Position numbers and translations under genes: made by a program. 64,000 bases of DNA from Candidatus Fraserbacteria bacterium (GTDB lineage Bacteria > Bipolaricaulota > Bipolaricaulia > RBG-16-55-9 > DRXL01): positions 4,290-68,289 of the forward strand of contig JBBIUX010000004.1 of the NCBI GenBank assembly GCA_037440025.1. The letters are read 5' to 3'. Below, piece by piece: positions 1,333 to 62,100 of this stretch (position 1 is the stretch's first letter; every line of letters begins with the position of its first letter). The notes below the pieces were generated by a model that was not told the origin of the DNA, did not search any database, and saw only the letters and a program-made list of their open reading frames with translations.

Positions 1333-1354
1333 GGATAAAACCTCTCCTCTGCCC

Positions 1355-1440
1355 CCTCCCCGACCCTCACCCATCCCTCCCTTCAAGGGAGAGGGTGCAG
1401 GGGGAGGGTTCCCCTTCCCTTTAGAGAAAGGGACTGAGGA
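1355..1440. repeat. Palindromic GC-rich element, copy R1, in the intergenic region between lon and gdh. Made of tandem hairpins of the CCCTCCCTT..GGGAGAGGG and CCCTTCCCTTTAGAGAAAGGGA type.
   Basis: Sequence similarity to the R5 and R7 copies on the opposite strand. Hairpin-forming inverted repeats are seen directly. Confidence 0.6.
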
Positions 1441-1441
1441 G

Positions 1442-3856
1442 TTAGGTCTTCTCTCCCTCCTCTTCTTTGGTTAAGTTTAGATTCTTCTGAATCTCGCGCA
1501 GCCGTGCTTCAACACGAGCGTAGATCGTCCCTTCCGGAAATTTTCCCTCAGGGGTTCGTTCACCTGCTTGGAGCCCTGTAAGCAATTCGAGCCCCTCTTC
1601 GACAGTCTTGACAGCGTAAATATGAAATTGGCCTCGTTTGACCGCATCAATGACCTCTGGGCGAAGCATCAGGTTATCTATATTCTGCTCAGGGATGATG
1701 ACCCCCTGCTGGCCTGTCAGCCCCTGCATTTTGCAGATCTTAAAAAATCCGTCAATCTTCTCGTTGACGCTGCCGATGGGCTGAATTTCGCCCTTCTGAT
1801 TGACCGAGCCGGTCACGGCTAAGTCTTGCTTGAGGGGGACATCGGCCAGTGCTGAGATGAGCGCGTACAGTTCCGTGCTTGAGGCCGAATCGCCGTCTAT
1901 TTTCGAGTAGCTCTGCTCAAACGTGATACTAGCCGAGAGACTGAGCGGCTGGGCTTGCGCGAATTTTTCACCGAGCCAGCCCTTCAAAATCAAGACGCCC
2001 TTGCTGTGAATTTTCCCCGACAGTTCGGCCTCGCGCTCCACGTTGAGCACACCTTCTTTGCCCGTAAACACGTTGGCTGTGATGCGCGTGGGGCGACCAA
2101 AAGAGAAATCAGGCAATTGCAGGACAGAGAGTCCGTTCACACAGCCGACGCGCTCCCCCTGGGTGTCTACGAGGATATCGCCGCGGATGATGAGCTCGTG
2201 AATCTTCTCTTCAATGAGGCTATTGCGATAGAGCTTTTCTTCGATAGCTTTTTCGATATGTTCGGCTTTGACCAGGCGTGCCCCTTCGCGCTCGACCCAG
2301 TAGGACGCTTCGCGAACGATGGTCATCAAGTCGCTGAAGCGCGCCGAAAGTTTTTTCTGATCGCCCGTCACTTCGGCGGCGTACTCGGCCAGCCGCGCCA
2401 GGGCTGCTCTGTGAAAATGCTTGAGCCCCGGGCGCTCTTTGACGCGCGCCGCCACAAACGGGCCCAGCTGCTTAATATATCTCTCGTTCCATTCCATCTC
2501 ATCATCGAAGTCAGCCTTCACCGCGAACAATTTTTGGAAATCTTCGTCCACCGCCTCTAAGAGATAGTACAGATCGGGGCTGCCGATGAGAATGACCTTC
2601 ACAGACAAGGGCACCGGTTCAGGCTTCAAGCCTTCCGTAGTGGTAAATCCCATCATCGTTGCGGGGTCTTCGATCTGGATGCGCCCGCAGCGGACGGCGA
2701 TCTTGAGCGCTTCCCAGCTGATCCAGTACTTTAATAAATTGTCGGCGTTCAGTACCAAATAGCCGCCGTTGGCCTCGTGAAGCGAGCCGGGCTTGATCAT
2801 GGTAAAGTCCGCGGTCATCACACCGAACTGCACTCTTCGTTCGATCTTGCCAAAAAGATTTGTGTACGTGGCGTTCTCTTGCACCACGACTGGCGCGCCT
2901 TTGGTCCTGCTGTGGTCTACTAGGACGTTGATCGTGTATCGTCTGAAGAGATCAATCATCCCCGTGGGCAGGGGCACCCCTTGCCCTTCACCCTCTTGGC
3001 TCTCTTTCGAAGGCTCAGAGAACTCCTTGATGTTCTGCAGAATATCAGCTTCGACGTCTTCAAGAAATTCGAGAACACGAGAATAATTGTTGTAGCGGGT
3101 CTGCAATCTCTTTATCAAAGGCTTGACGGTGTAGAGTGCAATATCTCTGTCGAGTTCACCAATTGCTCTCAAGCGTTGTTCTTCGATTTGTTCGAGCTGG
3201 CTCATGGCCTCTTGTACAATCTCTTGCAGCTCTTCACGGTGGCGCGCAATTCTCTGGCGATCTCGCTCCGGCAGGTTGGCAAACGCTTCTTCGGTGAGCG
3301 GCTTGCCGTCGAGCAACGGCGTAGCTTGAAATCCCAGCACCGAGAGCTGAAAGAGAAACCCCCGACGTCGTGCCTCTTGGTCGACGGTGCTGGAGACTTT
3401 ATTGCGCAGCTCATTGAACTGCTCGTCGATGCTTTGGCGTTTTTTTCGGTATTCTTCGCTATGGTACGCTGCCGGGATGCGCTCGCGCAGTTTCTCGATC
3501 AAGTACTCCATGTCGCCGGCCAGCTTGCGCCCCAGCCCCTGAGGCAGAAGAACATAGCGCGGGCAGTAGGGGTCATCGAAGTTATGCACATAGCACAGAT
3601 CAGACGGGGGCGGCTCTTTGAGGCTGATTTTTTTCAGAAAAGCTTGAACGATGGAGTTCTTTCCGGTGCCTGGGCTGCCGGCCACATAGATATTGTAGCG
3701 AAAATCTTTGATGCCTAAGCCCAAATCAAGCGCGCGTACAGCGCGTTCCTGACCGATGACATCGTCCAGGGGCTCGCACTCGGTCGTGGTCTCGATCTCG
3801 AAGACCTTTGGGTCACAACGGCGGCGTAGCTCCTCAGGCTGCAAACGGCGTGCCAT
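1442..3856 (-). CDS. Lon-like ATP-dependent protease: an N-terminal AAA+ domain plus a C-terminal Lon S16 proteolytic domain (COG1067/LonB-like family).
   Basis: Walker A motif VAGSPGTGKNS. C-terminal Lon_C-like region with a Ser-Lys dyad context (DGDSASSTELYALISA ... KIDGFFKICK). Length is about 800 aa. Confidence 0.8.
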   Translation of the reverse strand: MARRLQPEELRRRCDPKVFEIETTTECEPLDDVIGQERAVRALDLGLGIKDFRYNIYVAGSPGTGKNSIVQAFLKKISLKEPPPSDLCYVHNFDDPYCPRYVLLPQGLGRKLAGDMEYLIEKLRERIPAAYHSEEYRKKRQSIDEQFNELRNKVSSTVDQEARRRGFLFQLSVLGFQATPLLDGKPLTEEAFANLPERDRQRIARHREELQEIVQEAMSQLEQIEEQRLRAIGELDRDIALYTVKPLIKRLQTRYNNYSRVLEFLEDVEADILQNIKEFSEPSKESQEGEGQGVPLPTGMIDLFRRYTINVLVDHSRTKGAPVVVQENATYTNLFGKIERRVQFGVMTADFTMIKPGSLHEANGGYLVLNADNLLKYWISWEALKIAVRCGRIQIEDPATMMGFTTTEGLKPEPVPLSVKVILIGSPDLYYLLEAVDEDFQKLFAVKADFDDEMEWNERYIKQLGPFVAARVKERPGLKHFHRAALARLAEYAAEVTGDQKKLSARFSDLMTIVREASYWVEREGARLVKAEHIEKAIEEKLYRNSLIEEKIHELIIRGDILVDTQGERVGCVNGLSVLQLPDFSFGRPTRITANVFTGKEGVLNVEREAELSGKIHSKGVLILKGWLGEKFAQAQPLSLSASITFEQSYSKIDGDSASSTELYALISALADVPLKQDLAVTGSVNQKGEIQPIGSVNEKIDGFFKICKMQGLTGQQGVIIPEQNIDNLMLRPEVIDAVKRGQFHIYAVKTVEEGLELLTGLQAGERTPEGKFPEGTIYARVEARLREIQKNLNLTKEEEGEKT

Positions 3857-4664: not shown

Positions 4665-4689
4665 CGCACAGACCTCCTTCTTCACTCAA

Positions 4690-4754
4690 GGCCCTCACCC
4701 CGGCTGTGCCACCCCTCTCCCGTCTAGACGGGAGAGGGGTTGGGGGTGAGGGCC
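4690..4754. repeat. Palindromic element copy R2, intergenic. Outer stem GGCCCTCACCC/GGGTGAGGGCC, inner stem CCCCTCTCCCGTC/GACGGGAGAGGGG.
   Basis: Perfect nested inverted repeats read directly from the sequence. Confidence 0.8.
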
Positions 4755-4758
4755 GGTT

Positions 4759-6648: not shown

Positions 6649-6662
6649 ATCGTTCCTCCCTT

Positions 6663-6783
6663 GGCCCTCACCCCGCCGCACCCCTCTCCCGTCTTTACGG
6701 ACGGGAGAGGGGCCGGGGCGAAGCGTTTTGGTGCAGCATTTTTTCAGAAAGCGGTCGCACCAAAACGCTTCGGGGTGAGGGCC
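6663..6783. repeat. Palindromic element copy R3, a compound nested copy of about 120 bp with an extra internal hairpin GAAGCGTTTTGGTGC...GCACCAAAACGCTTC.
   Basis: Outer stem GGCCCTCACCCCG/CGGGGTGAGGGCC and two internal perfect stems, read directly. Confidence 0.8.
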
Positions 6784-6795
6784 TTCTCTCCCGTT

Positions 6796-12261: not shown

Positions 12262-12265
12262 TATT

Positions 12266-28720: not shown

Positions 28721-29862
28721 TTCTCAAGGAGGATTCCGTGAGGTACACCAGCGTTTTGTTCTTTTATCTCAGCACGGTGAGCTACTTTGTCACGTTTGTG
28801 CTGTATCTGCTCCACGTCGTGCTGAAGAGCTCCCCTCACCCCGCGCCCTCTCCCTTGAGGGGAGAGAGATGGGGTGAGAGGACGTTGAGCATCGTCGCGC
28901 CGAGCTCTTCAGGGGGGTTATCGAATATTCATTGGGGAATCTGGGCGACTCGCGCCCTGATAGTCAGTCTCTTGATCTCCAGTGCCGGTGTGATCGCCCG
29001 CGCCATCGAACTGGGCAATGCATCCCAATGGGTCAAGATGTTCTTCTTGCCCCTTTCGACAACCTATGAGACCTTGACTTTCTTCTCGTGGTTGATCCCG
29101 GTAGTGTATTTCTTGATGGAGCGAAAGTTTGGGATCAAGCAAGTGGGTGTCTTCGTCACTGGAGCGGCGTTTGTGATGCTGGCAATAGCCGCATCACCGA
29201 GTTTTGCGCCGAGCGCTCCCACAGGCGTTCCCGCGAGCTTACAAAGCTACTGGCTGACAACGCACGTGCTCTTTATGATCACTGGGATCGCGTTCTTTAC
29301 AAGTGGTTTCGGAGCGACGCTGCTCTATCTGTGGCGCCGCTATGGGAAGACTATGTTTCTCTTGTTCGGGGCGCTGCTCGCCGTCATCGCGGGTATCATC
29401 TTGTTCGTGATCCCGCTGTTTGCTACGTTGCAAACGCCCAAGATGCTTGCCGCTGCAGCACTCTTCATAACGCTCTGTACGGGCTTCAGTTGGCTGTTGC
29501 TTTTTGTGCATCGCGAAAGCCAGGCTGTCGCTTGGCAGAGCTTAGAAAACGTCGAAGAGATGATCTATCGTTCTATCGCTATTGGGTTCCCCTTCTATGC
29601 TATTGGGGGATTGGTCTTTGGGGGCATCTGGGCCGAGCAGGCTTGGAGTCGCTACTGGGGCTGGGACCCCAAGGAGACAGCGATGCTCGTTACGGCGTTG
29701 GTCTATGCTGTCTATCTACATGCCCGACTGACCTGGGGAGCGCGTGATCCCGGCTGGCGCGGTGGCTTGGTGGCTTGGCTGTCAGTCTTCGGGTATCTCG
29801 CCGTGCTGTATGCCTGGATCGGGATTAATTACTTTGTAGCCAGCTTGCACAGTTTCGTTTGA
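28717..29862 (+). CDS. Cytochrome c biogenesis protein CcsA/ResC (heme handling). It carries an in-frame palindromic-element insertion near the N-terminus.
   Basis: WWD/Trp-rich heme-handling domain WGWDPKETAMLVTALVYAVYLHARL...W..F. There is a 4-bp overlap with ccsB. Repeat copy R4 encodes ...SSPHPAPSPLRGERWGER... Confidence 0.85.
   Translation: MILKEDSVRYTSVLFFYLSTVSYFVTFVLYLLHVVLKSSPHPAPSPLRGERWGERTLSIVAPSSSGGLSNIHWGIWATRALIVSLLISSAGVIARAIELGNASQWVKMFFLPLSTTYETLTFFSWLIPVVYFLMERKFGIKQVGVFVTGAAFVMLAIAASPSFAPSAPTGVPASLQSYWLTTHVLFMITGIAFFTSGFGATLLYLWRRYGKTMFLLFGALLAVIAGIILFVIPLFATLQTPKMLAAAALFITLCTGFSWLLLFVHRESQAVAWQSLENVEEMIYRSIAIGFPFYAIGGLVFGGIWAEQAWSRYWGWDPKETAMLVTALVYAVYLHARLTWGARDPGWRGGLVAWLSVFGYLAVLYAWIGINYFVASLHSFV
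28832..28881. repeat. Palindromic element copy R4 (short), inside the ccsA-like CDS and in frame.
   Basis: CCCCTCACCCCGCGCCCTCTCCC-TTGA-GGGGAGAGAGATGGGGTGAGAGG inverted repeats. Confidence 0.7.
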
Positions 29863-41868: not shown

Positions 41869-45146
<3,278 letters not shown>

Positions 45147-47772: not shown

Positions 47773-49125
47773 ATGAGCGTCTTGCTAAGCCCGCGACAGG
47801 AGACAAGACCATTGATCTGGCGCGAGGTTCACCCTCCCTTGGAAGAGCCGGAAGCACTGATCGAGGCCGATCGCTGTCTTGAGTGCGGAGGGCCGTACGC
47901 CCCAGCTCCCTGCACAGCCGCTTGCCCGGCCCGCGTCCCAGTACCGCAGTTCATCCGAGCGATTCGCGAAGGCCGCCCCGAGGAGGCCGCCCGTCTCATC
48001 TTTGAAGCCAACATTGTAGGGGGCAGCTGCGCCCGCGTCTGCCCTGTAGAAGAGCTCTGTGAAGGAGCCTGTGTGCTGACCAAAGAGGGCCGCCGTGCTG
48101 TCTCCATTGGGCGCCTGCAACGCTATGCGACCGATGTGGCCCTGCAACATCAGATGAACTTCTTCGCTCGTCCCGCTTGGAAGACTCAGAGCGTCGGGGT
48201 CATCGGGGCCGGGCCTGCGGGGTTGGCATGTGCGGCTGAGCTGGCTAAGTTGGGCTACGAAGTCGTCGTCTATGAAAGTCGCCCCGCCCCAGGGGGATTG
48301 GTCACATCGGCCATCGCGCCCTACAAACAGATGAAAGAGCCGTTGCCTGCTGAAGTCGCCATGATCGAGCGACTGGGTGTGAAACTGCACTATGGGATGA
48401 CCGTTGGGAAAGATATTGCTATAGAAGAGCTTGAGCACCGACACCATGCGATCTTTCTCGGCGTCGGCTTGGGTGCGGATACGAAGGCGGGCCTTCCAGG
48501 CGAAGAGCTGCTGGGTGTCTGGGACTCGCTAGATTTTATCGGCCAGATCAAGCAGGGACATCTGCCGAAGATCGGCCCCACGGTGGCCGTCATCGGCGGC
48601 GGCAACACAGCCATTGACGTCGCCCGCGAGGCGGTGCGCCTTGGAGCGACCAACGTTATGGTACTCTATCGGCGTACCGAAGACCAAATGCCAGCCTTCA
48701 AGCATGAAGTCAAAGCCGCTCGCAAAGAGGGCGTGCACTACTATTGGCTGACGGCGCCCATACGGTTGATCGGCGACGGCAAAGTCAGACAAATCGAGTG
48801 TGTGCACATGAAGCTGGGTGCGGCAGATAGATCGGGCCGACCCGCCCCGGAGCCCGTTCCCGGCACAGAGTTCACCCTTGACGTCGACACGGTTATCAAA
48901 GCTATTGGGCAAGAGAAGCGCGTCGGGTTTTTCAAACAACTGGGATTGGAAACCGAAGGCGGGTTGGTCAAAGTCGGTGAAGGCTTTCAGACGAGCCGTG
49001 CCAAATACTTTGCGGGCGGCGATTGTGTCAACGGGGGCGATACGGTGGTCGAAGCTGTCCGACACGGCAAGATTGCTGCTCAAAGCATAGCGAAGTTCCT
49101 GTCGAAGGGGGGAGCTGATGCTTGA
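47773..49125 (+). CDS. GltD-family NAD(P)H-dependent FAD/Fe-S oxidoreductase (glutamate synthase small subunit-like or NfnB/SudA-like).
   Basis: N-terminal Cys cluster (CLECGGPY..C..C). Two dinucleotide folds (GVIGAGPAGLACA and VIGGGNTAIDVA). It lies upstream of the por/kor genes. Confidence 0.8.
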   Translation: MSVLLSPRQETRPLIWREVHPPLEEPEALIEADRCLECGGPYAPAPCTAACPARVPVPQFIRAIREGRPEEAARLIFEANIVGGSCARVCPVEELCEGACVLTKEGRRAVSIGRLQRYATDVALQHQMNFFARPAWKTQSVGVIGAGPAGLACAAELAKLGYEVVVYESRPAPGGLVTSAIAPYKQMKEPLPAEVAMIERLGVKLHYGMTVGKDIAIEELEHRHHAIFLGVGLGADTKAGLPGEELLGVWDSLDFIGQIKQGHLPKIGPTVAVIGGGNTAIDVAREAVRLGATNVMVLYRRTEDQMPAFKHEVKAARKEGVHYYWLTAPIRLIGDGKVRQIECVHMKLGAADRSGRPAPEPVPGTEFTLDVDTVIKAIGQEKRVGFFKQLGLETEGGLVKVGEGFQTSRAKYFAGGDCVNGGDTVVEAVRHGKIAAQSIAKFLSKGGADA

Positions 49126-49699
49126 GATTCGTTGGCACGGGCGCGGTGGGCAAGGGGCCAAGACGGTGTCGCAGTGCTTGGCTGGAGCAGCACTCCGGCG
49201 CGGACAGTACGCACAAGCGTTCCCCGAATACGGCCCGGAGCGCAGTGGTGCCCCAATGAAAGCTTTCAATCGGCTCGACACCAAGGAGATTCGCTTGCAC
49301 TGTAGCGTGTACGAGCCGGACATCGTTGTGGTGCTTGACCCAACGCTGCTGCAAGCCAAAGAAGCCCGCGTCACCGATGGGCTGAAGCGGCAGGGGACGT
49401 TGCTTGTTAACACACCGCGTACTCCCGATGAGATTGGGCAGCAAACGGGCTTTGTGGGAAAGATTGTCACACTCGATGCGGAGGCGCTGGCTCGCTCTGT
49501 CGGCGCGCGGTTCTCCAACGTCGTGATGGTAGGAGCTCTGGCGCGCTTGATAGGAGACATCGCTCTCGAAGAGTTGGAGCAAGAATTTTCGCAGGCATTT
49601 GGTGAAAAAGCGCTGACAACTAATATCGCGGCCCTGCGTGCCGGCTTCTCTGCAGTCAACGGGAACTTGGGCGAGACCCGTGAGGAGGCGTCATCGTGA
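49118..49699 (+). CDS. porG: 2-oxoacid:ferredoxin oxidoreductase gamma subunit (Por/Vor gamma).
   Basis: MLEIRWHGRGGQGAKT N-terminus typical of gamma subunits. Gamma-delta-alpha-beta gene order. Confidence 0.8.
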   Translation: MLEIRWHGRGGQGAKTVSQCLAGAALRRGQYAQAFPEYGPERSGAPMKAFNRLDTKEIRLHCSVYEPDIVVVLDPTLLQAKEARVTDGLKRQGTLLVNTPRTPDEIGQQTGFVGKIVTLDAEALARSVGARFSNVVMVGALARLIGDIALEELEQEFSQAFGEKALTTNIAALRAGFSAVNGNLGETREEASS

Positions 49700-50022
49700 A
49701 GCGGTATCAAGAATTACCCATCGGAGGGGTCGTCCCCGGAGGCGCAACGCCCCAATTAGTCCAGACCGGAGGCTGGCGGTCTGGGAAGAAACCCCTCTTC
49801 GATGAAAAACTCTGTGTGAACTGCCTGCTGTGCTGGGTTCATTGTCCCGAAGCAACGATTATCGTCGAACGGGCTCAGATGCGCGGCTTCAGCTACGATC
49901 ACTGTAAGGGATGTGGTATCTGTTCGCAAGCCTGTCCGACGGGCGCCATCGCGATGGTCGCAGAAGCGGCGGACGAACCCCAGATACCGGAACAGAAAGT
50001 GGGGGAGGAAGTATGCGCGTAG
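49696..50022 (+). CDS. porD: 2-oxoacid:ferredoxin oxidoreductase delta subunit (2x[4Fe-4S] ferredoxin).
   Basis: CVNCLLCWVHCPE and CKGCGICSQACP motifs. Confidence 0.8.
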   Translation: MKRYQELPIGGVVPGGATPQLVQTGGWRSGKKPLFDEKLCVNCLLCWVHCPEATIIVERAQMRGFSYDHCKGCGICSQACPTGAIAMVAEAADEPQIPEQKVGEEVCA

Positions 50023-51308
50023 CAGCGCCTCCAACTAAGCTCACTTTAATGACAGGCGCAGAGGCTGCCGCTCATGCCATGCGCCAAGTCAGGCCGGATG
50101 TCGTGCCCATCTATCCCATCACGCCGCAGACGCCGGTCATCGAGACGTTTGCCCAATTTGTGGCCGACGGGCAATGCGACACGGAGATCATTACCGTAGA
50201 AAGCGAGCACAGCGCCATGAGCGCAGCTGTCGGAGCTTCTTGTGCGGGAGCACGGGTGATGACCGCGACCAGCTCACAGGGACTGGCATTGATGTTAGAG
50301 ATCGTCTACATCGCAGCCTCCATGCGCTGCCCCATCGTGTTAGCTATCGGCAGCCGGGCACTCTCCGGCCCCATTAATATTCACTGCGATCACTCTGATA
50401 GCATGATGGCCCGCGACGCCGGCTGCGTGCAAATATTCGCTGAGAACGCCCAAGAAGCCTATGATATGATGGTGGTCGCCCAACGGCTGGCCGAAGACCG
50501 ACGGGTCTTGGTCCCAGTGATGGTGATGCAAGACGGCTTTACGATCACCCACTCAGCCGAGCCGGTCGCGCTTCTGCCCGATGAGACGGTGAAAGAATTT
50601 GTTGGCGAGTACGAGCCGCTCTATCCCTTGCTCGATACAGATCGTCCGACGACGCAGGGGCCTTTTGTGCTGCCCGACTATTACTTTGAGCTCAAGCGCC
50701 AGCAGGTGGACGCGCTCGAAGCAGCTCGTGACGTCTGGCTGGAACTACAAGAGAAGTTCGCTGCGATTTCGGGCCGTCGCTATCAGGGGTTCTTTGAGGA
50801 GTATAAGCTCAGCGATGCGGAGTATGCTCTGGTGATACTGAGCTCGACGGCAGGTACAGCGAAAGTCGTCGTTGATCGTCTGCGGCGCAAGGGGATCAAG
50901 GTTGGGCTCTTAAAACTCTGGCTCTTCCGACCCTTTCCGGGAAAAGAAATTGCTCAGGCATTGGCCGATAAGCGAGCTGTCGCCGTTTTGGATCGTGCGA
51001 TCTCTTTTGGGAGCTGGGGGCCTTTGTATCTCGAGATCGGCGCGGCGCTCAATAGAGCCCTCACCCCCGACCCCTCTCCCGGACCTAACCCCACCCCCTT
51101 CCCTAAAGGGAAGGGGCTCCCCTCCCTCTTTAGGGGAGGGGTTGGGGGAGAGGTCAGAGGGGTGAGGGCCTCAGGTCCCAGAATCTATAACTATATCTAC
51201 GGTTTGGGTGGACGCGACACCCCTCCGGAGCTTTTAGCTTCAGTCGTCACCGATCTCCAGAGCGAACTCGACCCAACAGTGCTGCGCTATCTGGGGCTGC
51301 GGGAGTGA
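50013..51308 (+). CDS. porA: 2-oxoacid:ferredoxin oxidoreductase alpha subunit, with an in-frame palindromic-element insertion near the C-terminus. The start is likely MRVAAPPTKL at 50013.
   Basis: Por alpha family sequence. The insertion encodes TPDPSPGPNPTPFPKGKGLPSLFRGGVGGEVRGVRASG between conserved blocks. Confidence 0.85.
   Translation: MRVAAPPTKLTLMTGAEAAAHAMRQVRPDVVPIYPITPQTPVIETFAQFVADGQCDTEIITVESEHSAMSAAVGASCAGARVMTATSSQGLALMLEIVYIAASMRCPIVLAIGSRALSGPINIHCDHSDSMMARDAGCVQIFAENAQEAYDMMVVAQRLAEDRRVLVPVMVMQDGFTITHSAEPVALLPDETVKEFVGEYEPLYPLLDTDRPTTQGPFVLPDYYFELKRQQVDALEAARDVWLELQEKFAAISGRRYQGFFEEYKLSDAEYALVILSSTAGTAKVVVDRLRRKGIKVGLLKLWLFRPFPGKEIAQALADKRAVAVLDRAISFGSWGPLYLEIGAALNRALTPDPSPGPNPTPFPKGKGLPSLFRGGVGGEVRGVRASGPRIYNYIYGLGGRDTPPELLASVVTDLQSELDPTVLRYLGLRE
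51058..51180. repeat. Palindromic element copy R7 inside porA, in frame. It shares the hairpin pair with R5 and has the GGGGTGAGGGCC terminus of R2, R3 and R6.
   Basis: CCCTTCCCT-AAA-GGGAAGGG and CCCCTCCCTC-TTTA-GGGGAGGGG hairpins, followed by ...GGTCAGAGGGGTGAGGGCC. Confidence 0.8.
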
Positions 51309-52267
51309 TTTTTGTGCCCAACACCAAAGAGCTGGCACATCATGAAGAAGTGTGCAAGCGGTTCACCGGTGCCCATGCCCTGTGTGCCGGGTGCGGCATT
51401 CCGGTCTGTGTGCGCACTATTTTGAATGCGATTGAGGAGCCGGTCGTGGTGCTCAACGCCACAGGCTGTCTCGAAGTCGCCACGACGCGCTACCCCACAA
51501 CGGCATGGAACGTCCCGTGGCTGCATGTCGCTTTTGAGAATACGGCTGCGGTTGCCAGTGGAGTCGAAACAGCCTATCGTATTTTACGGCGGCGGGGCAA
51601 GATTACCAAAGACATACGCTTTGTCGCCTTTGGGGGTGATGGCGGCACGTATGATATAGGCTTGCAGGCCCTTTCTGGGGCTCTGGAGCGCGGGCATAGA
51701 TTTCTCTATGTGTGCTACGACAACGAGGCGTATATGAACACAGGCAACCAGCGTTCCGGGGCGACTCCCTTCGCGTCTCAGACGACGACGGCTCCCACGG
51801 GAGAAAAGAGCTTTGGCAAGCCCCAGCGACGCAAAGACCTCACGGAGATCGTTGCCGCTCACCATGTTACGTATCTCGCTCAGGCTTCCATCAGCGATTG
51901 GCATGATCTGGCAGTCAAGGTCCGCAAGGCCGTCTCGGTGGAAGGCTCATCGTTTCTGAATGTTCTTTCGACCTGTCCGCGCGGGTGGGGACATCCTTCT
52001 GATCAGAGCATCAAGATCGCTCATCTTGCCGTGGAGACGTGCTATTGGCCCTTGTACGAGATCACTGACGGGAGATGGCACGTCAATTATATCCCTGAAG
52101 AGAAGCGCCCGATCACAGAGTGGCTGTGCTTGCAGCAGCGATTTGCCCATCTCTTTGAGCCGAGAAATAAAGGGCTCTTGCTTCAGATCCAGCAGCAAGT
52201 AGATGAAGACTGGGATCGTCTGGTGCGCAAGTGTCAGGAGTCGGATGGGGTTTATGAGACGCTATGA
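51305..52267 (+). CDS. porB: 2-oxoacid:ferredoxin oxidoreductase beta subunit (TPP-binding).
   Basis: GDGG..D TPP motif (FGGDGGTYDIG). C..C cluster ligands. Confidence 0.88.
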   Translation: MIFVPNTKELAHHEEVCKRFTGAHALCAGCGIPVCVRTILNAIEEPVVVLNATGCLEVATTRYPTTAWNVPWLHVAFENTAAVASGVETAYRILRRRGKITKDIRFVAFGGDGGTYDIGLQALSGALERGHRFLYVCYDNEAYMNTGNQRSGATPFASQTTTAPTGEKSFGKPQRRKDLTEIVAAHHVTYLAQASISDWHDLAVKVRKAVSVEGSSFLNVLSTCPRGWGHPSDQSIKIAHLAVETCYWPLYEITDGRWHVNYIPEEKRPITEWLCLQQRFAHLFEPRNKGLLLQIQQQVDEDWDRLVRKCQESDGVYETL

Positions 52268-52487
52268 GCAGGGCAGTTTTTTCTTAGCGATTGAGCCGCG
52301 TCGCTGTAAAAGCTGCGGAGTCTGCGTCCAGAGTTGCCCCACGGGGATTCTCGTACTGAATGGGGAAGGCAAAGTCACGGTGCAGGATATCGCTCGTTGT
52401 GTCTTCTGTGGCATCTGTGAACAGAGATGCCCAGACTTTGCCATCTCCGTGCACAAGGACGCTGTGTTGCAGCCATCACCCCTATGA
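52245..52487 (+). CDS. Ferredoxin-like delta subunit of a second 2-oxoacid:ferredoxin oxidoreductase. The start is uncertain (52203, 52245 or 52254).
   Basis: CKSCGVCVQSCP and CVFCGICEQRCP motifs. ATGA overlap with the downstream alpha gene. Confidence 0.65.
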   Translation: MGFMRRYEQGSFFLAIEPRRCKSCGVCVQSCPTGILVLNGEGKVTVQDIARCVFCGICEQRCPDFAISVHKDAVLQPSPL

Positions 52488-53686
52488 AAAAGAAGAGAAG
52501 CAGCAGCCAGACGAGACGCGCAACGCATGCAAACAACAACAGAGAGCCGGAGCTCGTTCAAGGCAATGAGGCTTGTGCTCAAGGCGCTCTCTATGCGGGT
52601 TGCCGTTTTTTTGCTGGGTATCCCATTACTCCCAGCAGTGAGATCATGGAATACCTAGCCCGCGAGCTTCCCAAGGCCGGCGGCGTCTGTATACAGATGG
52701 AGGACGAGATCGCTTCTATTTCGGCAGTGATTGGGGCTTCGTGGGGCGGCGCCAAAGCAATGACGGCCACGAGCGGGCCGGGGTTTTCGCTCATGCAAGA
52801 GAGCATTGGCTACGCCGCGATCACGGAGACCCCCTGTGTCATCGTGGATGCCCAGCGCGGTGGCCCCAGCACCGGCCAGCCGACGAAGGCTGCTCAGGGA
52901 GATGTGATGCAAGCTCGTTGGGGCACCCACGGCGATCACCCCGTGATCGTCCTAACGGCTTCGTGGGTGCGCGAGATCTTTGAGATGACTGTGTATGCTT
53001 TTAATCTCTCGGAGAGGTACCGGGTGCCGGTGATCTTATTGCTGGACGAGGTGCTCGCGCATCTGCGCGAGAATGTTGTCTTGCCGGAGCCCGGAGAATT
53101 GGAAGTGATCTCCCGTCGCCGCCCGGAGGACCCAGAGGAGTTTCGACCGTTTCTTGATGAGGCTATGGTCAACTTCGGTGAAGGCGCTCGGCTGATGGTC
53201 ACGGGGATGTCTCATGATGAGATGGGGTTCCCAGCTCAGGGCAAGAAGGCCGCCGAGCAGCTGAGACGAATCGTCGCGAAGATCGAAAGCCGAGCTGAAG
53301 CATTGGCCCTCTATCAGGCGCATTTTATAGATGATGCCGAATGTGTGATTATCAGTTACGGAATAACCAGCCGTGCCGCCGAAGAAGCGGTCCGGGAGTT
53401 ACGGGCCGCCGGAATCTCGGTGGGCTGGCTTGATCTCAAAACTCTGTGGCCCTTTCCAGAAAAGTTGGTGCGTTCCTGCACGGAGAACGCACGCTATGTG
53501 CTTGTCCCGGAACTGAATCTCGGGCAACTGGTGCGGGAGGTAGAACGTGCTGTGGCGGGTCGTGCCCTGGTCGAGCATGTGGGCCGTGTGGATGGTGCAT
53601 TGATCACGCCGCAAGAGATCTGTCAGAGCCTGCGTGAACGCGAATCTGTAGGATATACTGTCGGTCGGAGGGCGCATGGCCCATAA
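52484..53686 (+). CDS. Second 2-oxoacid (likely 2-oxoglutarate):ferredoxin oxidoreductase alpha subunit (KorA-like).
   Basis: LVQGNEACAQGALYAGCRFFAGYPITPSSEI N-terminus typical of KorA/OorA. Confidence 0.8.
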   Translation: MKKKRSSSQTRRATHANNNREPELVQGNEACAQGALYAGCRFFAGYPITPSSEIMEYLARELPKAGGVCIQMEDEIASISAVIGASWGGAKAMTATSGPGFSLMQESIGYAAITETPCVIVDAQRGGPSTGQPTKAAQGDVMQARWGTHGDHPVIVLTASWVREIFEMTVYAFNLSERYRVPVILLLDEVLAHLRENVVLPEPGELEVISRRRPEDPEEFRPFLDEAMVNFGEGARLMVTGMSHDEMGFPAQGKKAAEQLRRIVAKIESRAEALALYQAHFIDDAECVIISYGITSRAAEEAVRELRAAGISVGWLDLKTLWPFPEKLVRSCTENARYVLVPELNLGQLVREVERAVAGRALVEHVGRVDGALITPQEICQSLRERESVGYTVGRRAHGP

Positions 53687-54509
53687 TTTTCAAGAGTATC
53701 TCAGACTGGAAAAGTTGCCCCACGTCTGGTGCCCCGGCTGTGGTCATGGGATGATCACCCATGCGCTGGCCCAGGCAATGGCTGAGCTGGAATTAGATTC
53801 CCGGCAAACGGTCGTGGTGGGCGGGATCGGCTGCTCTGGGCGCGCGGCGTTTCTCTTCGATATGGACACCATGCATACGACTCACGGGCGGGCCATTGCC
53901 TTTGCGGCCGGCCTGAAGCTCGTGCGGCCCACGCTAACGGTTCTGTTGACTCTTGGCGACGGTGATGCCCTGGGCATCGGAGGCAATCACTTTATTCACG
54001 CTTGTCGGCGCAATTTGGACTTAACAGCGATTATCTATAACAATTCGATTTACGGCCAGACGGGTGGACAGCTTGCGCCGACAACGCCCTCTTATAAGAA
54101 GAGCACGACCAGCCCCTATGGGAATCTCGAGCATCCGTTCGATATCGCACGGCTCGCTGCGGCTGCCGGCGCAACGTATGTAGCCCGAACGACCAGTTTT
54201 GATTTCCCTGATATGGTAAAGCGTATCACACAAGGCATTGTTCATAAGGGGTTTTCCGTCATAGAAGTTCTCACTGATTGCCCGACGTATTACGGGCGGA
54301 TGAACGACATGCGCGATCCCTATGAGATGCTGCACCATCTCAAAGAGCATACGGTGCCTGTCGAAGACTGGGAAAAGCTGAGCGATGAAGAACGCGCTGA
54401 TAAAATAGTCATCGGCGAGTTGGTTTGTGAAGAACGCCCGGAGTTTGTCGAGAGTTACTATCGTTTGATAGCACGGGTACAAGTGCGGGTGGAAGCGCAT
54501 GGCCACTAA
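53676..54509 (+). CDS. Second 2-oxoacid:ferredoxin oxidoreductase beta subunit (KorB-like, TPP-binding).
   Basis: WCPGCGHG and GDGDALGIGGNHF TPP motifs. Confidence 0.85.
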   Translation: MAHNFQEYLRLEKLPHVWCPGCGHGMITHALAQAMAELELDSRQTVVVGGIGCSGRAAFLFDMDTMHTTHGRAIAFAAGLKLVRPTLTVLLTLGDGDALGIGGNHFIHACRRNLDLTAIIYNNSIYGQTGGQLAPTTPSYKKSTTSPYGNLEHPFDIARLAAAAGATYVARTTSFDFPDMVKRITQGIVHKGFSVIEVLTDCPTYYGRMNDMRDPYEMLHHLKEHTVPVEDWEKLSDEERADKIVIGELVCEERPEFVESYYRLIARVQVRVEAHGH

Positions 54510-59160: not shown

Positions 59161-62100
59161 ATGTTCCGTTTGGTAGATCGCTACTTCGTACGCGAGATGA
59201 TCTTTCCCTTTGTGCTCGCCGTCGTGGGATTTGTGCTCTTCATCGTGCTCAACCTCATCCAACAGCTCTCAGACTTCATGCTTGATCGCAATATCTCTCT
59301 CTGGGTGCTCTTTCAAATATTGGCCTATCGCCTGCCCGAACTCTTAGTGTATGGCTTGCCCGTCGGTGTTTTATTCGCGATCTTCTGGGCACTGGGCCGC
59401 CTCAGCCATGACCGCGAGCTGGTTGCTCTCCAAGCCGCAGGGTTCTCACTCAGAAGACTGATGTGGCCCGTCTTGCTCATGGGATTTATCACGACGGCCA
59501 CGGCTTTCGCCGTGGGAGAACTGTGGATGCCCTGGGCCAATCATCGTTACTACGATCTCTTGCGCGAGATCTTTTTGATACGCTCTGCTCCGCAGATTCG
59601 TGAGTCGACGTTCGTGAAGATCAGCGACAGCGCTTACGCTTATATCGAACGGTACGACCCTCAGACCAAGGAGCTGCGCACCGTGATGGTCTTCGACCGA
59701 GGCGGCGGCGAATATCTCGATGAGCTGGCAGCACGCTTTCCCAAGATCATCACCGCCGAAGAAGGTCTGTGGGACGGCGAATATTGGCGACTGGCAAACG
59801 GGAAACTCCATAAGTTGCGCGATGATGGCCAGTTCGAGTACACCGTTATCTTTGAACAGCTTTCGATACGAGCCGGGCCCTATCTGCAAAAGCTCTTCTT
59901 TGAGCAGCGCACTCCTCATGAGATGGGTATACTCGAACTGTATAAACAGATAGAGTTGCTCCACCGCAGCGGTCTGGGAGCGGAGAGCTTGATCGTCGAG
60001 CTGCACTCCAAGATCGCCGTGCCATTTTCGGCTTTGATCTTTGCACTCTTTGGTGCTCCCCTGAGTTTGATCTTCGCGCAGGGAGGTGCCCCGCGCGGAC
60101 GGGCTGCCGGTGTCATTATGAGCTTGCTCTTGGTTGCCGGCTACCAGGGGTTACTCTTATGGATGTCAACGCTGGGCAGGCGGAGCTTGATCGCACCTAT
60201 CTTGGCTCCTTGGATTCCCAATATTCTGTTCGCGCTGATCGGGCTTCTTTTGCTGCTCTGGGTGGATCGGCTCAGCCGCATGGATCTTCTCGCGCGTCTG
60301 CGACGGCTCGTCCCGTTTGGGGCGTTCCTACTGGCTTTCGGGAACTTTTACACCGTTGCTCAAGAGCCACCGCCCATCTCGCTCGACCTGCAAGCCGACA
60401 AGCTCACCGTTGCCCGCGATTGGCGCGAGCTGACCGCTGATGGGCACGTTCGCCTGGAGTACGCCAATGGCCGACTCCAAGCGGACAGACTGAGTGCCCA
60501 GCGGATTCCCCCCTCTCTCTCTGATAAAGGGAGAGCGGAAGGAAGGAAGGGTGAAGCGTGGCGCATCGCTGCCCAAGGGAGCGTCTCTTGGGAAGGTGAG
60601 GGCTTCAAGGGCGAGACAGAAGCCATCGAACTCCAAATAGGGTGGGATGGCACTGCGTGGCAGCTAGAGGACGCACGATTACTGACAGCTCGCTTGGAGT
60701 ACGAGCAGGGGAGCCTGCGCGCCGATGAGATCGTTGTGCGGCGCGCCGAGCATGAGCGCATATGGATCGCCGAAGCACGCGGCCGTGTGCGTCTAGAAGA
60801 GCAAGGGGACAAAAAGACTGTAGACTACGCTGACGCCGACGAACTGACGCTCGAACTGGTCACCCCTAGCCCTTCTTCCGTTCGTGAAGACGGGGCAGGG
60901 CAGGGTGAGGGCCAAGTGCGAGCCCGTTCGGCTGTATTGAAGAATTTCATCGGCCAGACGCGCTTTGAAAGCGCCGCCAAAAAGCAAGAGACCCTGCGTT
61001 TCCAAGGCCGCCAAGCCCAAGCGACTTTCTCCCCAGACGGACGCATCAAACTTCTAGAAATAGCCACGGGCGAGATCACCACGTGTACCTGCCCTGACCC
61101 GATCACACGATCAGCCTACTCGATCGCTGCGGCCGGCGTCCGATTGGAGCTTGGTGAGTCTGTTCTGGCAACCAATATCCTGTTAAAAACCTATGGGGTA
61201 CCCATCTTCTGGGCCCCAGTCTACTTTGCCTCCCTGAAAGAAGAGACGAAAAACCCCTTGCTGCCAGACTTTGGACAGCTGCCCGCCCGCGGCTGGTACG
61301 TCCGCTGGCGCTTTCCCTTTGTCATTGACAAGAACAATACCGGCACGCTCGTGGTTGACTATTACACCAAACTGCCCGAAGTGGGAACGGGCATAGAATA
61401 TAACTATAGATTTTGGTCGCAGCAGGGCCAGATGTCGGTCTATCGCCTCGTTGGTCGCGGCGAGTCCAGGGCCGTTGATTGGAACCATCAGGCCCAGCTG
61501 CCGCTGAACATGCGTTTATCTCTGGGGGTCTCTTCACGAACTGGCCTCTTAGAACAAGAAGCCCAGCGGCTCTTCTCGCGAGCGCTCTTGTCGGCTGACT
61601 GGGGGCCTGTGCGCTGGAGCGCGCTCTGGAGCCGTGATCACAACCTGCTGCAACCGGAGCCGGATAAAGAACAAATAATTCTCTATCGTCTCTTGGAAAA
61701 GACCCCGGAGCTGACGCTCTCGCTCGTGCCCCTGCGCTTGGGACCGCTCCCGCTCTCGCTGACGCTGGGTGTCGCGTGGGGCACATATCGTGAAAAGAAG
61801 CTGGATCGAGAAAACTTTGACGAGAGCACACGGTTTGATACCGTCGTGGGCTTGCAGTCTCTCGCGCTGGGAACGGCTATCTTCACCATGCAGACCAGCA
61901 CCAATTATCGGCTCTCGCTCTATGAGCCCCAACGATATCGTCGTGAGGCGTATGATCTGACCGTGGCGCTCAGCCTGCGCCCGCTGCCCGGCTTGAGCGC
62001 CGACATAACGTATTCGTATCGGCGCGTCATAGGGCAAAGCCCATTTAGCTTCGATCAGCTCAGTCTGCTGCACCGGGTCACCATACGAGCGACCTCGACG

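What the first reader, a model, noticed from the sequence alone, without database searches (positions are those of the whole stretch)
51058..51180. In-frame palindromic-element insertion in the por alpha subunit (and also in ccsA)
The alpha subunit of the first 2-oxoacid:ferredoxin oxidoreductase has a ~35-aa insertion (TPDPSPGPNPTPFPKGKGLPSLFRGGVGGEVRGVRASG) encoded by an element copy that is ~85% similar to the ileS copy at 42519-42600 but read in a different frame. The ccsA-like gene (28832-28881) carries a shorter copy encoding PAPSPLRGERWGER. So the same DNA element is tolerated in several frames within essential proteins.
Basis: seen in the sequence. Interest (0 to 1): 0.7.

Follow-up and report, generated by a model that had tools for sequence, protein, structure and literature searches.

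The report
Palindromic repeat translated inside essential genes
A GC-rich palindromic repeat of about 115 bases, built from the same sequence blocks as the E. coli BoxC/"triplex motif" repeats, sits in frame inside the pyruvate:ferredoxin oxidoreductase alpha subunit (and inside IleS, CcsA and an LptF/G-like gene) of a Bipolaricaulota genome. It most likely adds a disordered loop to the protein, as the palindromic elements of Rickettsia do, but in another phylum and with another element family.

Summary
Window 51057-51170 is a nested palindrome that adds 35 residues to PorA. All 62 aligned homologues lack it, as do the other eight members of its own 90%-identity cluster, including one 97% identical outside the insert.

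Its ~81-nt core (GGACCTAACC…GAGAGGTC) is 85% identical to the ileS copy and is read in a different frame there. The ccsA copy is real too. AlphaFold models place the PorA and CcsA inserts in low-confidence loops.

The window holds nine copies: three intergenic and six in coding sequence. The core is nearly invariant in ten further metagenomic copies, seven of them in frame in Pfam-verified genes (FtsH, GcvT and others).

The outer and inner stems use the same 9-mers as the published E. coli BoxC/TM_ECO motif, which is reported as always intergenic there. The canonical ~55-nt palindrome occurs in many phyla, also in frame in MutL, PolA, SMC and PurD.

The pyrimidine-only and purine-only arms cannot encode stop codons, which explains the tolerance. 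None of the 12 aligned core copies shows a target-site duplication, and no transposase was found among the window genes examined (26 ORFs scanned). The mobilising mechanism is unresolved.

Verdict: a new variant of a known kind (coding palindromic repeats), of moderate interest.

The parts
51057..51170 (+). Copy G: full-length nested palindrome in porA. Layout: outer stem GCCCTCACCCC/GGGGTGAGGGC, second stem CCCCTCTCCC/GGGGGAGAGG, then the core with two inner hairpins. Translated as ALTPDPSPGPNPTPFPKGKGLPSLFRGGVGGEVRGVRA.
   Evidence: (MFE -84 kcal/mol, z = -4.6)
50013..51308 (+). porA, the pyruvate:ferredoxin oxidoreductase alpha subunit (431 aa; homologues are 382-403 aa).
   Evidence: TM-score 0.89 normalised to target against 9bt4_A
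42505..42600 (+). Copy E: core-only copy in ileS, in the loop before the WTTTPWT motif. It lacks the left outer arms and is read in a different frame from G.
43957..44022 (+). Copy F: canonical ~66-nt palindrome in ileS, in the loop before LLDRWILSRL. Translated as ALTPPFGHPAPAAPGEGRGVRA. It is also present, 20% diverged, in sister contig L002.
41851..45150 (+). ileS (1099 aa), which hosts copies E and F.
28824..28885 (+). Copy D: short palindrome in the ccsA-like gene, in the loop between the first two predicted helices. Translated as SSPHPAPSPLRGERWGERT.
28738..29862 (+). ccsA/ccsB-type cytochrome c biogenesis gene (374 aa from Met; PF01578).
1340..1450 (-). Copy A: intergenic copy of the same core family in reverse orientation. 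Its GACCTAAC end supplies the TAA stop of the Lon-like gene.
   Evidence: (I3-I5)
4691..4754 (.). Copy B: intergenic canonical palindrome. Its right half, CCCCTCTCCC..GGGAGAGGGG-TTG-GGGGTGAGGG, uses the same 9-mers as E. coli TM_ECO type B.
   Evidence: (z = -7.0)
6664..6783 (.). Copy C: intergenic canonical outer and inner stems, plus an unrelated nested 15-bp hairpin.
   Evidence: (z = -9.8)
60508..60556 (+). Copy I: decayed remnant in the LptF/G-like ORF, at the site where the orthologue in L132 carries an intact core copy.
60860..60916 (+). Copy H: degenerate palindrome inside a window-specific 41-aa insert of the same ORF.
   Evidence: (I17)

Best explanation
Window 51057-51170 is one copy of a non-autonomous, GC-rich, nested-palindromic repeat family. 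The family has a core of about 81 nt, GGACCTAACC…GAGAGGTC, and optional outer arms CCCTCACCCCC-N3-CCCCTCTCCCC … GGGGGTGAGGG. It is a lineage-specific composite of the widespread BoxC/TM_ECO-type polypyrimidine/polypurine palindromes.

Shown:
- The copy entered, or replaced, a hypervariable loop of porA recently in this lineage.
- It keeps the reading frame and has no stop codon.
- The same core is read in other frames and in both orientations in other genes.

Inferred:
- It is translated into a Pro/Ser-rich then Gly/Glu/Arg-rich disordered loop that is close to neutral for the enzyme.
- Tolerance follows from the design. Arms made only of C/T or only of G/A cannot encode stop codons in any frame, so only loops and junctions can close a frame. 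Selection then keeps only copies whose net length is a multiple of three and which sit in permissive loops or inter-domain linkers. That would explain why the same loops are hit again and again in orthologues.

Spread is copy-and-paste without target-site duplication and with replacement of 25-45 nt of resident sequence. My preferred mechanism is hairpin-provoked replication or repair template switching, or short-patch conversion from another copy (about 0.4 on its own). A hairpin-recognising single-strand (HUH/RAYT-like) transposase acting in trans is the main alternative.
For: Insertion status:
- All 62 aligned homologues lack the insert.
- The other eight members of the 90% cluster are 382-396 aa.
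- Sister-strain contig L001 is 98.7% and 96.5% identical on the two sides of the site and has 31-33 nt where the window has 136 nt.

Repeat family:
- 12 copies have a nearly invariant ~80-nt core, and the flanks diverge immediately outside it.
- Their hosts are only about 70% identical at protein level.

Coding tolerance:
- Each copy has 2-4 of 6 frames free of stops, and most have 3-4.
- The core is read in at least three ways.
- 7 of 11 metagenomic loci carrying the core have it in frame in Pfam-verified genes.
- The canonical palindrome is in frame in MutL, PolA, SMC, PurD and others, mostly between Pfam domains.

Disordered loops:
- PorA residues 359-385 have pLDDT below 50 and lie between helix 337-350 and strand 390-396.
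- CcsA residues 40-57 have pLDDT below 50 and lie between helices 4-30 and 66-95.
- The IleS inserts fall in gaps relative to the solved chain 8c8v.

Neutrality and decay:
- Intragenic hairpins are weaker than intergenic ones, with z = -2.1 to -4.6 against -7.0 and -9.8.
- Copy F differs by 20% between strains against 7.3% at four-fold sites.
- Remnants and footprints are seen in orthologues.

Mechanism:
- There is no target-site duplication.
- No transposase was found among the 26 window ORFs scanned, and the syntenic genes are all ordinary.
- Holder et al. 2015 (PMC4666352) link the same motif to local instability without any transposon association.
Against: - Translation of the insert is inferred only from the open frame. 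There is no proteomic or transcript evidence.
- Copy G is supported by a single assembly, an NCBI contig of 82,639 nt.
- The near-invariance of the core across diverged hosts fits an enzyme-recognised mobile element, or horizontal transfer, better than passive template switching.
- Only 64 kb of the genome was examined, so a trans-acting transposase elsewhere is not excluded.
- Clusters of mostly synonymous changes next to copies G and E could instead mean import of a diverged allele by homologous recombination.
- Solvent exposure of the insert in the assembled four-subunit enzyme was not modelled.
Confidence: 0.75

Rival explanations
1. The element is a REP/REPIN-like or IS200/IS605-like non-autonomous element. 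A hairpin-recognising HUH (Y1, RAYT-type) transposase encoded elsewhere in the genome moves it as single-stranded DNA. In-frame survival is then the same selective filter.
For: There is no target-site duplication, and the element has terminal and subterminal hairpins. The core sequence, loops included, is nearly invariant across hosts, as expected if a protein recognises it. Both 'empty' sites contain a perfect 7-bp hairpin, which occurs in only 1.5-3% of random windows.
Against: No Y1 or other transposase was found among the 26 window ORFs scanned or in the syntenic loci. The copies share no conserved GTAG/CGTC tag and no constant target tetranucleotide next to their ends (criterion from the title and abstract of PMC3733652 as listed). 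The insertions replace resident sequence. E. coli copies of the related motif show no link to mobile elements.
Confidence: 0.25
2. The element is a classical MITE mobilised by a DDE transposase that recognises terminal inverted repeats.
For: Its size (80-120 nt) fits. It has short inverted termini, GACCT…AGGTC, extendable to about 12 nt with two mismatches. It has many dispersed copies.
Against: None of the 12 aligned core copies (two of them with an orthologous site lacking the element) shows a target-site duplication, nor does copy D. No parent insertion sequence was seen. Modules are nested and exchangeable (copies B, C, G), unlike a fixed MITE body.
Confidence: 0.07
3. The inserts are adaptive. 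Either the encoded Pro/Gly-rich loops act as linkers or interaction segments, or the very stable hairpins in DNA or mRNA regulate expression (for example mRNA stabilisation, or ribosome pausing at domain boundaries). On this view they are kept by selection rather than merely tolerated.
For: Copies lie preferentially between Pfam domains. In L086 the element peptide links a DAO domain and a Peptidase_M19 domain in a single ORF. Copy G lies 140 nt upstream of the porA stop, just before porB, and has an MFE of -84 kcal/mol.
Against: Presence and absence vary between strains that are 96-99% identical. The element evolves faster than synonymous sites. It is read in different frames, giving unrelated peptides. 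Hairpins decay inside genes. PIT/TM_ECO motifs showed no promoter or terminator activity in E. coli (PMC4666352).
Confidence: 0.08
4. The insert is an assembly or binning artefact, a chimeric join through a repeat, and is not present in the real porA gene.
For: The 431-aa PorA is recorded from one NCBI contig only. Repeats can mislead assemblers.
Against: The insert is exactly 105 nt net, in frame and free of stops. It is flanked by colinear porA sequence. At 114 nt it is shorter than typical reads. Analogous in-frame copies occur in independent assemblies and samples. The ccsA copy is present in two assemblies.
Confidence: 0.03
5. The segment is native, conserved PorA/CcsA/IleS sequence whose resemblance between genes is low-complexity coincidence.
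For: The loops concerned are compositionally biased and variable in all relatives.
Against: Homologues lack it. Nucleotide identity between genes is 85-96%, with zero matches in shuffles. Twelve copies are near-identical in unrelated genes.
Confidence: 0.01

Closest known systems
Rickettsia palindromic elements (RPE; Ogata et al. 2000 Science, 2002 Genome Res; summarised in PMC10969869 and PMC3184786)
   Same: Both are palindromic repeats of about 100-150 nt, dispersed in the genome and inserted in frame into many unrelated housekeeping genes. Orthologues lack them, and the positions are compatible with the protein fold. The mobilising mechanism is unknown in both cases.
   Different: The phylum differs (Bipolaricaulota and others versus Rickettsia), and no sequence relationship is expected or was seen. 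Here the arms are strictly polypyrimidine/polypurine and G+C-rich. The same core is read in several frames and both orientations, whereas the review describes each RPE as encoding a conserved peptide. Here the events replace loop sequence.
E. coli BoxC / PIT / TM_ECO G/C-rich intrastrand triplex motif (Holder et al. 2015, PMC4666352; Hoyne/Maher; BoxC in PMC2267715)
   Same: The 9-mer blocks CCCTCTCCC, GGGAGAGGG and GGGTGAGGG(C) are identical and in the same order. Palindromic paired configurations exist. There is no transposon association, and both are linked to local sequence instability.
   Different: In E. coli the motif is reported as always intergenic, whereas here 6 of 9 copies are in coding sequence. 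Loop lengths fall outside the published pattern: there are 0 strict matches and 3 with relaxed loops. The porA and ileS copies are a larger composite with two extra hairpins. Triplex formation was not tested here.
REP/BIME/REPIN elements with RAYT transposases (PMC3733652 and references in PMC3184786)
   Same: Both are short GC-rich palindromes in many copies, sometimes clustered or nested, with no target-site duplication.
   Different: There is no conserved GTAG/CGTC tag and no RAYT gene in the window. The elements are not extragenic, and the unit is longer and multi-hairpin.
Other bacterial repeats fused to ORFs: BRE of Bordetella, pneumococcal BOX/RUP/SPRITE, Coxiella QMITE1/2 (PMC3184786, PMC5896051)
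   Same: Small non-autonomous repeats occasionally lie inside genes, extend them in frame, or supply stop codons. Copy A does this for the Lon-like gene.
   Different: The Coxiella QMITEs carry short direct repeats, and these families are mostly intergenic or sit at gene ends. Here internal in-frame copies in core housekeeping genes are frequent.
Mobile GC clusters of yeast mitochondrial genomes (my own knowledge, not checked here)
   Same: Both are GC-rich palindromic mini-elements that can sit in frame inside protein-coding genes.
   Different: That is an organellar, AT-rich genome context with an unrelated sequence. The parallel is conceptual only.

Membership tests
BoxC / TM_ECO intrastrand triplex motif | Three blocks in the order CCCTCNCCC … GGGNGAGGG … GGGNGAGGG | tested here: met
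   Copies A, B and C match exactly with relaxed loops. Copies D-G match with at most 1 mismatch per block. There were 0 matches in 100 block shuffles. The 9-mers are identical to Table 1 of PMC4666352.
BoxC / TM_ECO intrastrand triplex motif | Published spacing: first loop 3-6 nt, second loop 3 nt | tested here: not met
   There are no strict-pattern matches in the window. Copy B has an 8-nt first loop (extended by GTC/GAC pairing). Its second loop is 5 nt with 9-mer blocks, or 3 nt (TTG) if the blocks are taken as 10-mers.
BoxC / TM_ECO intrastrand triplex motif | Always intergenic (as reported for E. coli K-12) | tested here: not met
   Six of nine window copies lie in ORFs. Copies elsewhere are in Pfam-verified genes.
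BoxC / TM_ECO intrastrand triplex motif | Forms a purine-motif intrastrand triplex in vitro | not testable with these tools
   By hand, all ten triads of copy B (GGGAGAGGGG / TTG / GGGGTGAGGG) are permitted (G.G:C, A.A:T, T.A:T). The hairpin-B plus GGGGGAGAGG arrangement in copies E and G is not fully compatible. There are no biophysical data.
BoxC / TM_ECO intrastrand triplex motif | Associated with locally elevated sequence variability | tested here: met
   Copy F diverges 20% against 7.3% at four-fold sites. Sites are replaced and flanking changes cluster. The largest of the four indels of at least 9 nt in a 20-kb comparison is copy D.
RPE-like coding palindromic elements | Dispersed palindromic repeat of about 100-150 nt | tested here: met
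   The full form is about 115 nt and the core about 81 nt. There are 12 aligned copies and significant folds.
RPE-like coding palindromic elements | In-frame insertion in unrelated protein-coding genes, with orthologues lacking it | tested here: met
   Hosts are PorA, IleS (two copies), CcsA and LptF/G-like in the window, and FtsH, GcvT, an ABC ATPase, a GT2 and others elsewhere.
RPE-like coding palindromic elements | Insert lies on the protein surface or in a loop compatible with the fold | tested here: inconclusive
   Monomer AlphaFold models show low-pLDDT loops, and the IleS inserts fall in gaps relative to solved IleS. Exposure in the assembled complexes was not modelled.
RPE-like coding palindromic elements | Sequence homology to the ten Rickettsia RPE families | not tested
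   No RPE sequences were compared. Composition (G+C-rich, purine/pyrimidine arms) and host phylum make homology unlikely. The resemblance is functional.
MITE | Target-site duplication flanking the element | tested here: not met
   None of the 12 aligned core copies shows one, nor does copy D; three of these sites (G, E, D) could be compared with an orthologous site lacking the element.
MITE | Terminal inverted repeats matching a parent insertion sequence | tested here: inconclusive
   There are short termini GACCT/AGGTC. No insertion sequence lies in the window. The rest of the genome was not available.
REP/REPIN-RAYT | Conserved GTAG or CGTC tag at one end of the palindrome | tested here: not met
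   The consensus has no conserved tag. A CTAC occurs upstream of hairpin A in only some copies.
REP/REPIN-RAYT | Cognate RAYT (Y1 transposase) gene flanked by the repeats | tested here: inconclusive
   None was found among the 26 window ORFs scanned with Pfam. Only 64 kb of the genome was seen.
Intron / intein / translational bypass element | Catalytic RNA or protein-splicing motifs, so that the host frame need not be kept | tested here: not met
   There are no Rfam matches in the window. The 35-aa insert is too small for an intein. All intragenic copies keep an open frame.

The most novel reading that the evidence does not exclude
The BoxC/TM_ECO-type palindrome GCCCTCACCCC-N3-CCCCTCTCCC-loop-GGGAGAGGGG-N3-GGGGTGAGGGC and its composites may be a single, cross-phylum, still-active class of 'coding-competent' selfish DNA. 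Its purine/pyrimidine arm design would make it intrinsically free of stop codons. It would then populate loops and inter-domain linkers of core housekeeping proteins (IleS, PorA, PolA, SMC, MutL, FtsH, PurD) in Bipolaricaulota, Chloroflexota, Cyanobacteria, Armatimonadota, Verrucomicrobiota and Proteobacteria. It would be moved by a conserved mechanism that creates no duplication and has not been identified. It would be a general source of disordered-loop and linker innovation, including gene fusions.
Probability: 0.3. Interest if true: 0.75.

Novelty: new variant of a known kind. Interest (0 to 1): 0.55.

Why it matters
In-frame palindromic repeats in housekeeping genes are textbook only for Rickettsia. 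This case shows the same phenomenon in a deep-branching, uncultured phylum, with an element built from the BoxC/triplex-motif blocks that are described as strictly intergenic in E. coli.

It gives a simple sequence-level reason for coding tolerance: arms made only of purines or only of pyrimidines cannot encode stop codons.

It identifies hypervariable loops in IleS, CcsA and PorA as recurrent landing sites.

It provides near-isogenic filled and empty alleles with which to study how such repeats move and what they cost an enzyme.

On the practical side, these inserts inflate protein lengths, perturb alignments and can be mistaken for lineage-specific domains in annotation of metagenome-assembled genomes.

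Tried and rejected
- The strict published TM_ECO pattern gave no match in the window. Only relaxed loop lengths fit.
- Rfam (gathering thresholds) and ARAGORN found nothing in the window, so no known RNA family explains the hairpins.
- A full-text search for the typical encoded peptides (GEGPGVRA and similar) returned no papers. A search aimed at Rickettsia elements was swamped by retinal 'RPE' papers.
- A scan of 2.9 million viral contigs with the outer-stem pattern gave a single hit, so phage carriage is not a general vector.
- The look-up of P0241 for the source record failed. The source is known only as an NCBI contig of 82,639 nt.
- In one search I gave wrong minus-strand coordinates for two loci. 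That alignment is superseded.
- Hairpin-targeted insertion: both 'empty' sites carry a perfect 7-bp stem (1.5-3% of random windows), but their folding energies are unremarkable (27% of windows fold as well). I keep this only as a weak lead.
- Covariation support for the structure: none is possible, because the core hardly varies (0 compensatory pairs).
- Searching the window for a transposase found none among the 26 ORFs scanned.
Full report
**1. The observation**

The ORF 49911..51308 contains TPDPSPGPNPTPFPKGKGLPSLFRGGVGGEVRGVRASG. That ORF overlaps the preceding ferredoxin-type delta subunit, so the likely PorA start is the Met at 50013, which gives 431 aa.

The DNA at 51057-51170 is a nested palindrome. 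It has an outer stem GCCCTCACCCC/GGGGTGAGGGC, a second stem CCCCTCTCCC/GGGGGAGAGG, and two inner hairpins (CCCTTCCCT-AAA-GGGAAGGGG and CTCCCCTCCCT-CTTT-AGGGGAGGGG). Its MFE is -84 kcal/mol and its z-score is -4.6.

Chance does not explain it. A 21-mer from the element has 5 matches in the window with up to 3 mismatches, against none in 100 shuffles. A 45-nt block is 96% identical between the porA and ileS copies (D5).

**2. It is an insertion, not PorA sequence**

The 120 best homologues listed out of 5.8 billion proteins are 367-403 aa and come mostly from Candidatus Bipolaricaulota/Acetothermia. In alignments of 13 and 63 sequences, the 35 extra residues are unique to the window protein. The nearest relative, P0001, is 97% identical outside the insert.

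The exact 431-aa protein is on record from one NCBI contig of 82,639 nt. The other eight members of its 90% cluster are 382-396 aa.

The contig that encodes P0001 (L001, Logan ERR14790940) is 98.7% and 96.5% identical to the window on the two sides of the site. It has 31-33 nt where the window has 136 nt.

The event is not a clean insertion. About 33 nt of a loop (…ALERSLLKRPLL…) are replaced. That loop is itself hypervariable, indels included, among relatives at least 90% identical.

**3. The other copies**

A motif census finds seven clear copies:
- A, 1340-1450
- B, 4691-4754
- C, 6664-6783
- D, 28824-28885
- E, 42505-42600
- F, 43957-44022
- G, 51057-51170

Two decayed copies lie in the 1189-aa LptF/G-like ORF: I at 60508-60556 and H at 60860-60916. 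A, B and C are intergenic and the other six are in coding sequence.

ileS therefore carries two copies. Against the solved IleS chain 8c8v they appear as a 27-aa and a 13-aa insertion, the first before the WTTTPWT motif and the second before the LDxWILSRL motif.

In the sister-strain contig L002 (95.5% and 96.7% identical on the two sides), copy E is replaced by about 45 unrelated or partly related nucleotides. Copy F is present but diverged.

Copy D is shared with sister contig L135. It is absent from the 91%-identical genome GCA_900175145.1 (L136), where about 27 nt differ and 24 nt are missing. In that 20-kb comparison only four indels of at least 9 nt exist, and D is the largest.

**4. Frames**

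Copies E and G share an 81-column core, 69/81 = 85% identical with two 3-nt indels (counted on the alignment). They are read in different frames: DLTTLPPSLKGRGDSPPSLGEGLGERS in ileS and GPNPTPFPKGKGLPSLFRGGVGGEV in porA.

Each copy has 2-4 of 6 frames free of stops, and most have 3-4. The reason can be read from the sequence. The arms are pure C/T or pure G/A, and no stop codon can be written with only pyrimidines or only purines. Frames close only at junctions such as GGG-TGA-GGG or at loop TAA/TAG triplets.

**5. Structure**

An AlphaFold model of PorA, built on a 63-sequence alignment, has mean pLDDT 83 and pTM 0.85. Residues 359-385 have pLDDT below 50 and lie between helix 337-350 and strand 390-396. 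The fold matches the PFOR alpha subunit, with TM-scores of 0.89-0.91 normalised to target against 9bt4_A and 5c4i.

For CcsA (mean pLDDT 85), the insert falls in the only long low-confidence segment, residues 40-57, between helices 4-30 and 66-95.

These are monomer models. Exposure in the assembled complexes was not tested.

**6. Hot spots**

In alignments of IleS and CcsA orthologues from Bipolaricaulota, the same loops carry different element-like inserts in different lineages. Examples are PNPPAPFPKGKGESSPPRAGEGLGERS, ALTPSPSPLRGRGEGVRA and KPPFLKGRGDSPPPLGEGVGERS. Apparent deletion footprints also occur (PNPQA…RLGERS). Baseline orthologues have no insert.

A second, unrelated palindromic insert family (…AWTVHxAAxGGxxHSPDEVW) uses the same two IleS loops. 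Because different families hit the same loops, these sites look permissive, which points to a selective filter more than to sequence-specific targeting.

**7. The family**

A metagenome scan with the double-hairpin core returned 11 loci. Together with E and G they define a nearly invariant core of about 81 nt: GGACCTAACCCCC-TAC-CCCCTTCCCTAAAGGGAAGGGG-GAG-CTCCCCTCCCTCTTTAGGGGAGGGG-CTGGGGGAGAGGTC. The flanks diverge immediately outside the core, apart from the optional outer arms CCCTCACCCCC-N3-CCCCTCTCCCC … GGGGGTGAGGG.

No target-site duplication is visible. There is also no covariation, because the core hardly varies.

Seven of the 11 loci have the copy in frame in genes verified by Pfam, in both orientations and several frames:
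- FtsH
- GcvT
- an ABC ATPase
- a family-2 glycosyltransferase
- a FAD-binding oxidoreductase
- a protein with an OmpR-type C-terminal DNA-binding domain
- the LptF/G-like protein

The LptF/G host is only about 69% identical to the window orthologue, while the element core is about 90% conserved.

**8. Relationship to known repeats**

The outer and inner stems use exactly the 9-mers of the E. coli TM_ECO (BoxC/PIT) motif, CCCTCNCCC-N3-6-GGGNGAGGG-N3-GGGNGAGGG (Holder et al. 2015, PMC4666352).

That paper reports the following:
- 3610 copies in 262 proteobacterial genomes;
- a strictly intergenic location in E. coli K-12;
- no link to mobile elements;
- stable triplex formation by the single strand in vitro, but no evidence for it in vivo;
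- elevated local variability.

The published spacing is not met here. There are 0 strict matches, 3 with relaxed loops, and all copies match with at most 1 mismatch per block.

They come from Chloroflexota, Cyanobacteria, Verrucomicrobiota, Armatimonadota, Acidobacteriota, several classes of Proteobacteria and Bipolaricaulota. The exact inner 9-mer CCCTCTCCC is counted 69 times and its complement GGGAGAGGG 63 times across the 122 matched inserts.

About 21 of the 122 matches lie in ORFs of at least 400 aa. Ten of these were scanned with Pfam, and all are bona fide genes with the element mostly between domains:
- MutL
- DNA polymerase I
- SMC
- PurD
- an amidohydrolase
- an AMP-binding ligase
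- a type ISP restriction enzyme
- a FAD oxidase
- an Eco57I-type methylase
- a single ORF that combines a DAO domain and a Peptidase_M19 domain, with the element peptide as the linker

Only one hit was found in 2.9 million viral contigs.

**9. Dynamics**

Intragenic copies fold less well than intergenic ones, with z-scores of -2.1 to -4.6 against -7.0 and -9.8.

Copy F differs at 13 of 66 positions (20%) between the window and L002. Four-fold degenerate sites of the same gene differ by 7.3%. Each allele has a different stem mismatch (read).

Codons immediately flanking G and E carry clusters of mostly synonymous differences.

These features match the 'instability' reported for the E. coli motif. 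They fit a nearly neutral, error-prone or frequently converted segment.

**10. Mechanism**

*Shown.* The element is a recently spreading repeat, it is tolerated in frame in loops, it has no target-site duplication, it replaces resident sequence, and no transposase lies in the window. The last point rests on 26 ORFs scanned with Pfam, with the rest ordinary by synteny.

*Inferred.* The insert is translated as a disordered loop, and selection acts as the filter.

How the element moves is unresolved. I favour hairpin-provoked template switching or short-patch conversion between copies. This would account for the replacement, the modular nesting (copies B, C, G), the lack of duplications and the recurrence at sites that already hold small hairpins. 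The main rival is a trans-acting HUH/RAYT-like enzyme, which would better explain the near-invariant core.

Both 'empty' sites contain a perfect 7-bp hairpin, found in 1.5-3% of random windows. Their folding energies are unremarkable, so this is only a lead.

**11. Comparison and novelty**

In-frame palindromic repeats are established for Rickettsia RPEs. They are noted sporadically for BRE, pneumococcal repeats and Coxiella QMITEs. The kind of phenomenon is therefore known.

Three things are new relative to the papers I could read:
- the element family, a BoxC/TM_ECO-type composite;
- its frequent coding location, in contrast with the strictly intergenic E. coli copies;
- the host phylum.

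The apparent cross-phylum occurrence inside core housekeeping genes, and the simple stop-free arm logic, are also not described in those papers. A full-text search for the typical encoded peptides found nothing, but the library does not cover subscription journals.

I rate it a new variant of a known kind, with interest 0.55.

Noticed in passing
IleS orthologues P0122, P0123, P0141, P0144-P0158 (alignment), at the loops equivalent to window 42505-42600 and 43957-44022: A second, unrelated family of in-frame palindrome-encoded inserts (…AWTVH[LR]AAxGGxxHSPDEVW, and SSGLYTLPRSGKMNGPGGAW as another reading) occupies the same two IleS loops in other Bipolaricaulota lineages.
   Followed up: partly
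window 1340-1475: The GACCTAAC end of intergenic copy A supplies the TAA stop codon (1442-1444, minus strand) of the Lon-like protease gene 1442..3856. The purine-rich C-terminal codons (…TKEEEGEKT*) may also derive from the element. The copy lies just upstream of the glutamate dehydrogenase start (ATG at 1332, minus strand).
   Followed up: partly
window 59161-62730: An 1189-aa ORF has an N-terminal LptF/LptG permease domain (residues 7-366) and a long uncharacterised C-terminal part. It carries two decayed element copies. Copy I is at the site where the orthologue in L132 has an intact core copy. Copy H lies in a 41-aa window-specific insert.
   Followed up: partly
window 6716-6772 (and 3606-3640): Copy C encloses an additional perfect 15-bp hairpin, GAAGCGTTTTGGTGC…GCACCAAAACGCTTC, with a T-rich loop. 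A similar sequence occurs at 3606-3640 (D3). This may be another small repeat or a terminator-like element.
   Followed up: no
window 61-1386 (-) and 55062-56339 (+): Two glutamate dehydrogenase paralogues (ELFV_dehydrog) lie in inverted orientation about 54 kb apart, 71-83% complementary at the DNA level (I1/I2).
   Followed up: partly
window 47773-55038: Two 2-oxoacid:ferredoxin oxidoreductase operons lie in tandem (gamma-delta-alpha-beta, then delta-alpha-beta-gamma). They are preceded by a GltD-like Fer4_20/Pyr_redox_2 protein. The arrangement is conserved in sister contig L001.
   Followed up: partly
window 3945-8931 and 37236-39530: A cluster of PKD/VWA-domain proteins shares 60-76% identical DNA segments (D1/D4). 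Intergenic copies B and C separate three of these genes.
   Followed up: no
window 9543-15718: An operon encodes a molybdopterin oxidoreductase, a 4Fe-4S subunit, an ethylbenzene-dehydrogenase-type haem subunit and a NarJ-like chaperone. It is a periplasmic Nar/Ebd-type complex of unknown substrate.
   Followed up: no
L086:115-2541 (-): In an unrelated genome the element-encoded peptide (PPSPRPSPRREGRGEG) lies between a DAO domain (18-371) and a Peptidase_M19 domain (481-804) within one 809-aa ORF. This may be a gene fusion bridged by the element.
   Followed up: partly
L081:299-5146 (-), L063:5138-7999 (+), L082:1114-4809 (-): Single genes in other phyla carry two element-derived peptides each: a type ISP restriction enzyme, a FAD oxidase and SMC. 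This shows multiple hits per gene outside Bipolaricaulota.
   Followed up: partly
L124, L126 and L128: In three metagenome loci the core copy directly follows two other conserved hairpins (…CGGCGGATGAATCCGCCGG… and …GCAAGCGTGCTGAAGCACGCTG…). This suggests composite arrays of different palindromic repeats.
   Followed up: no
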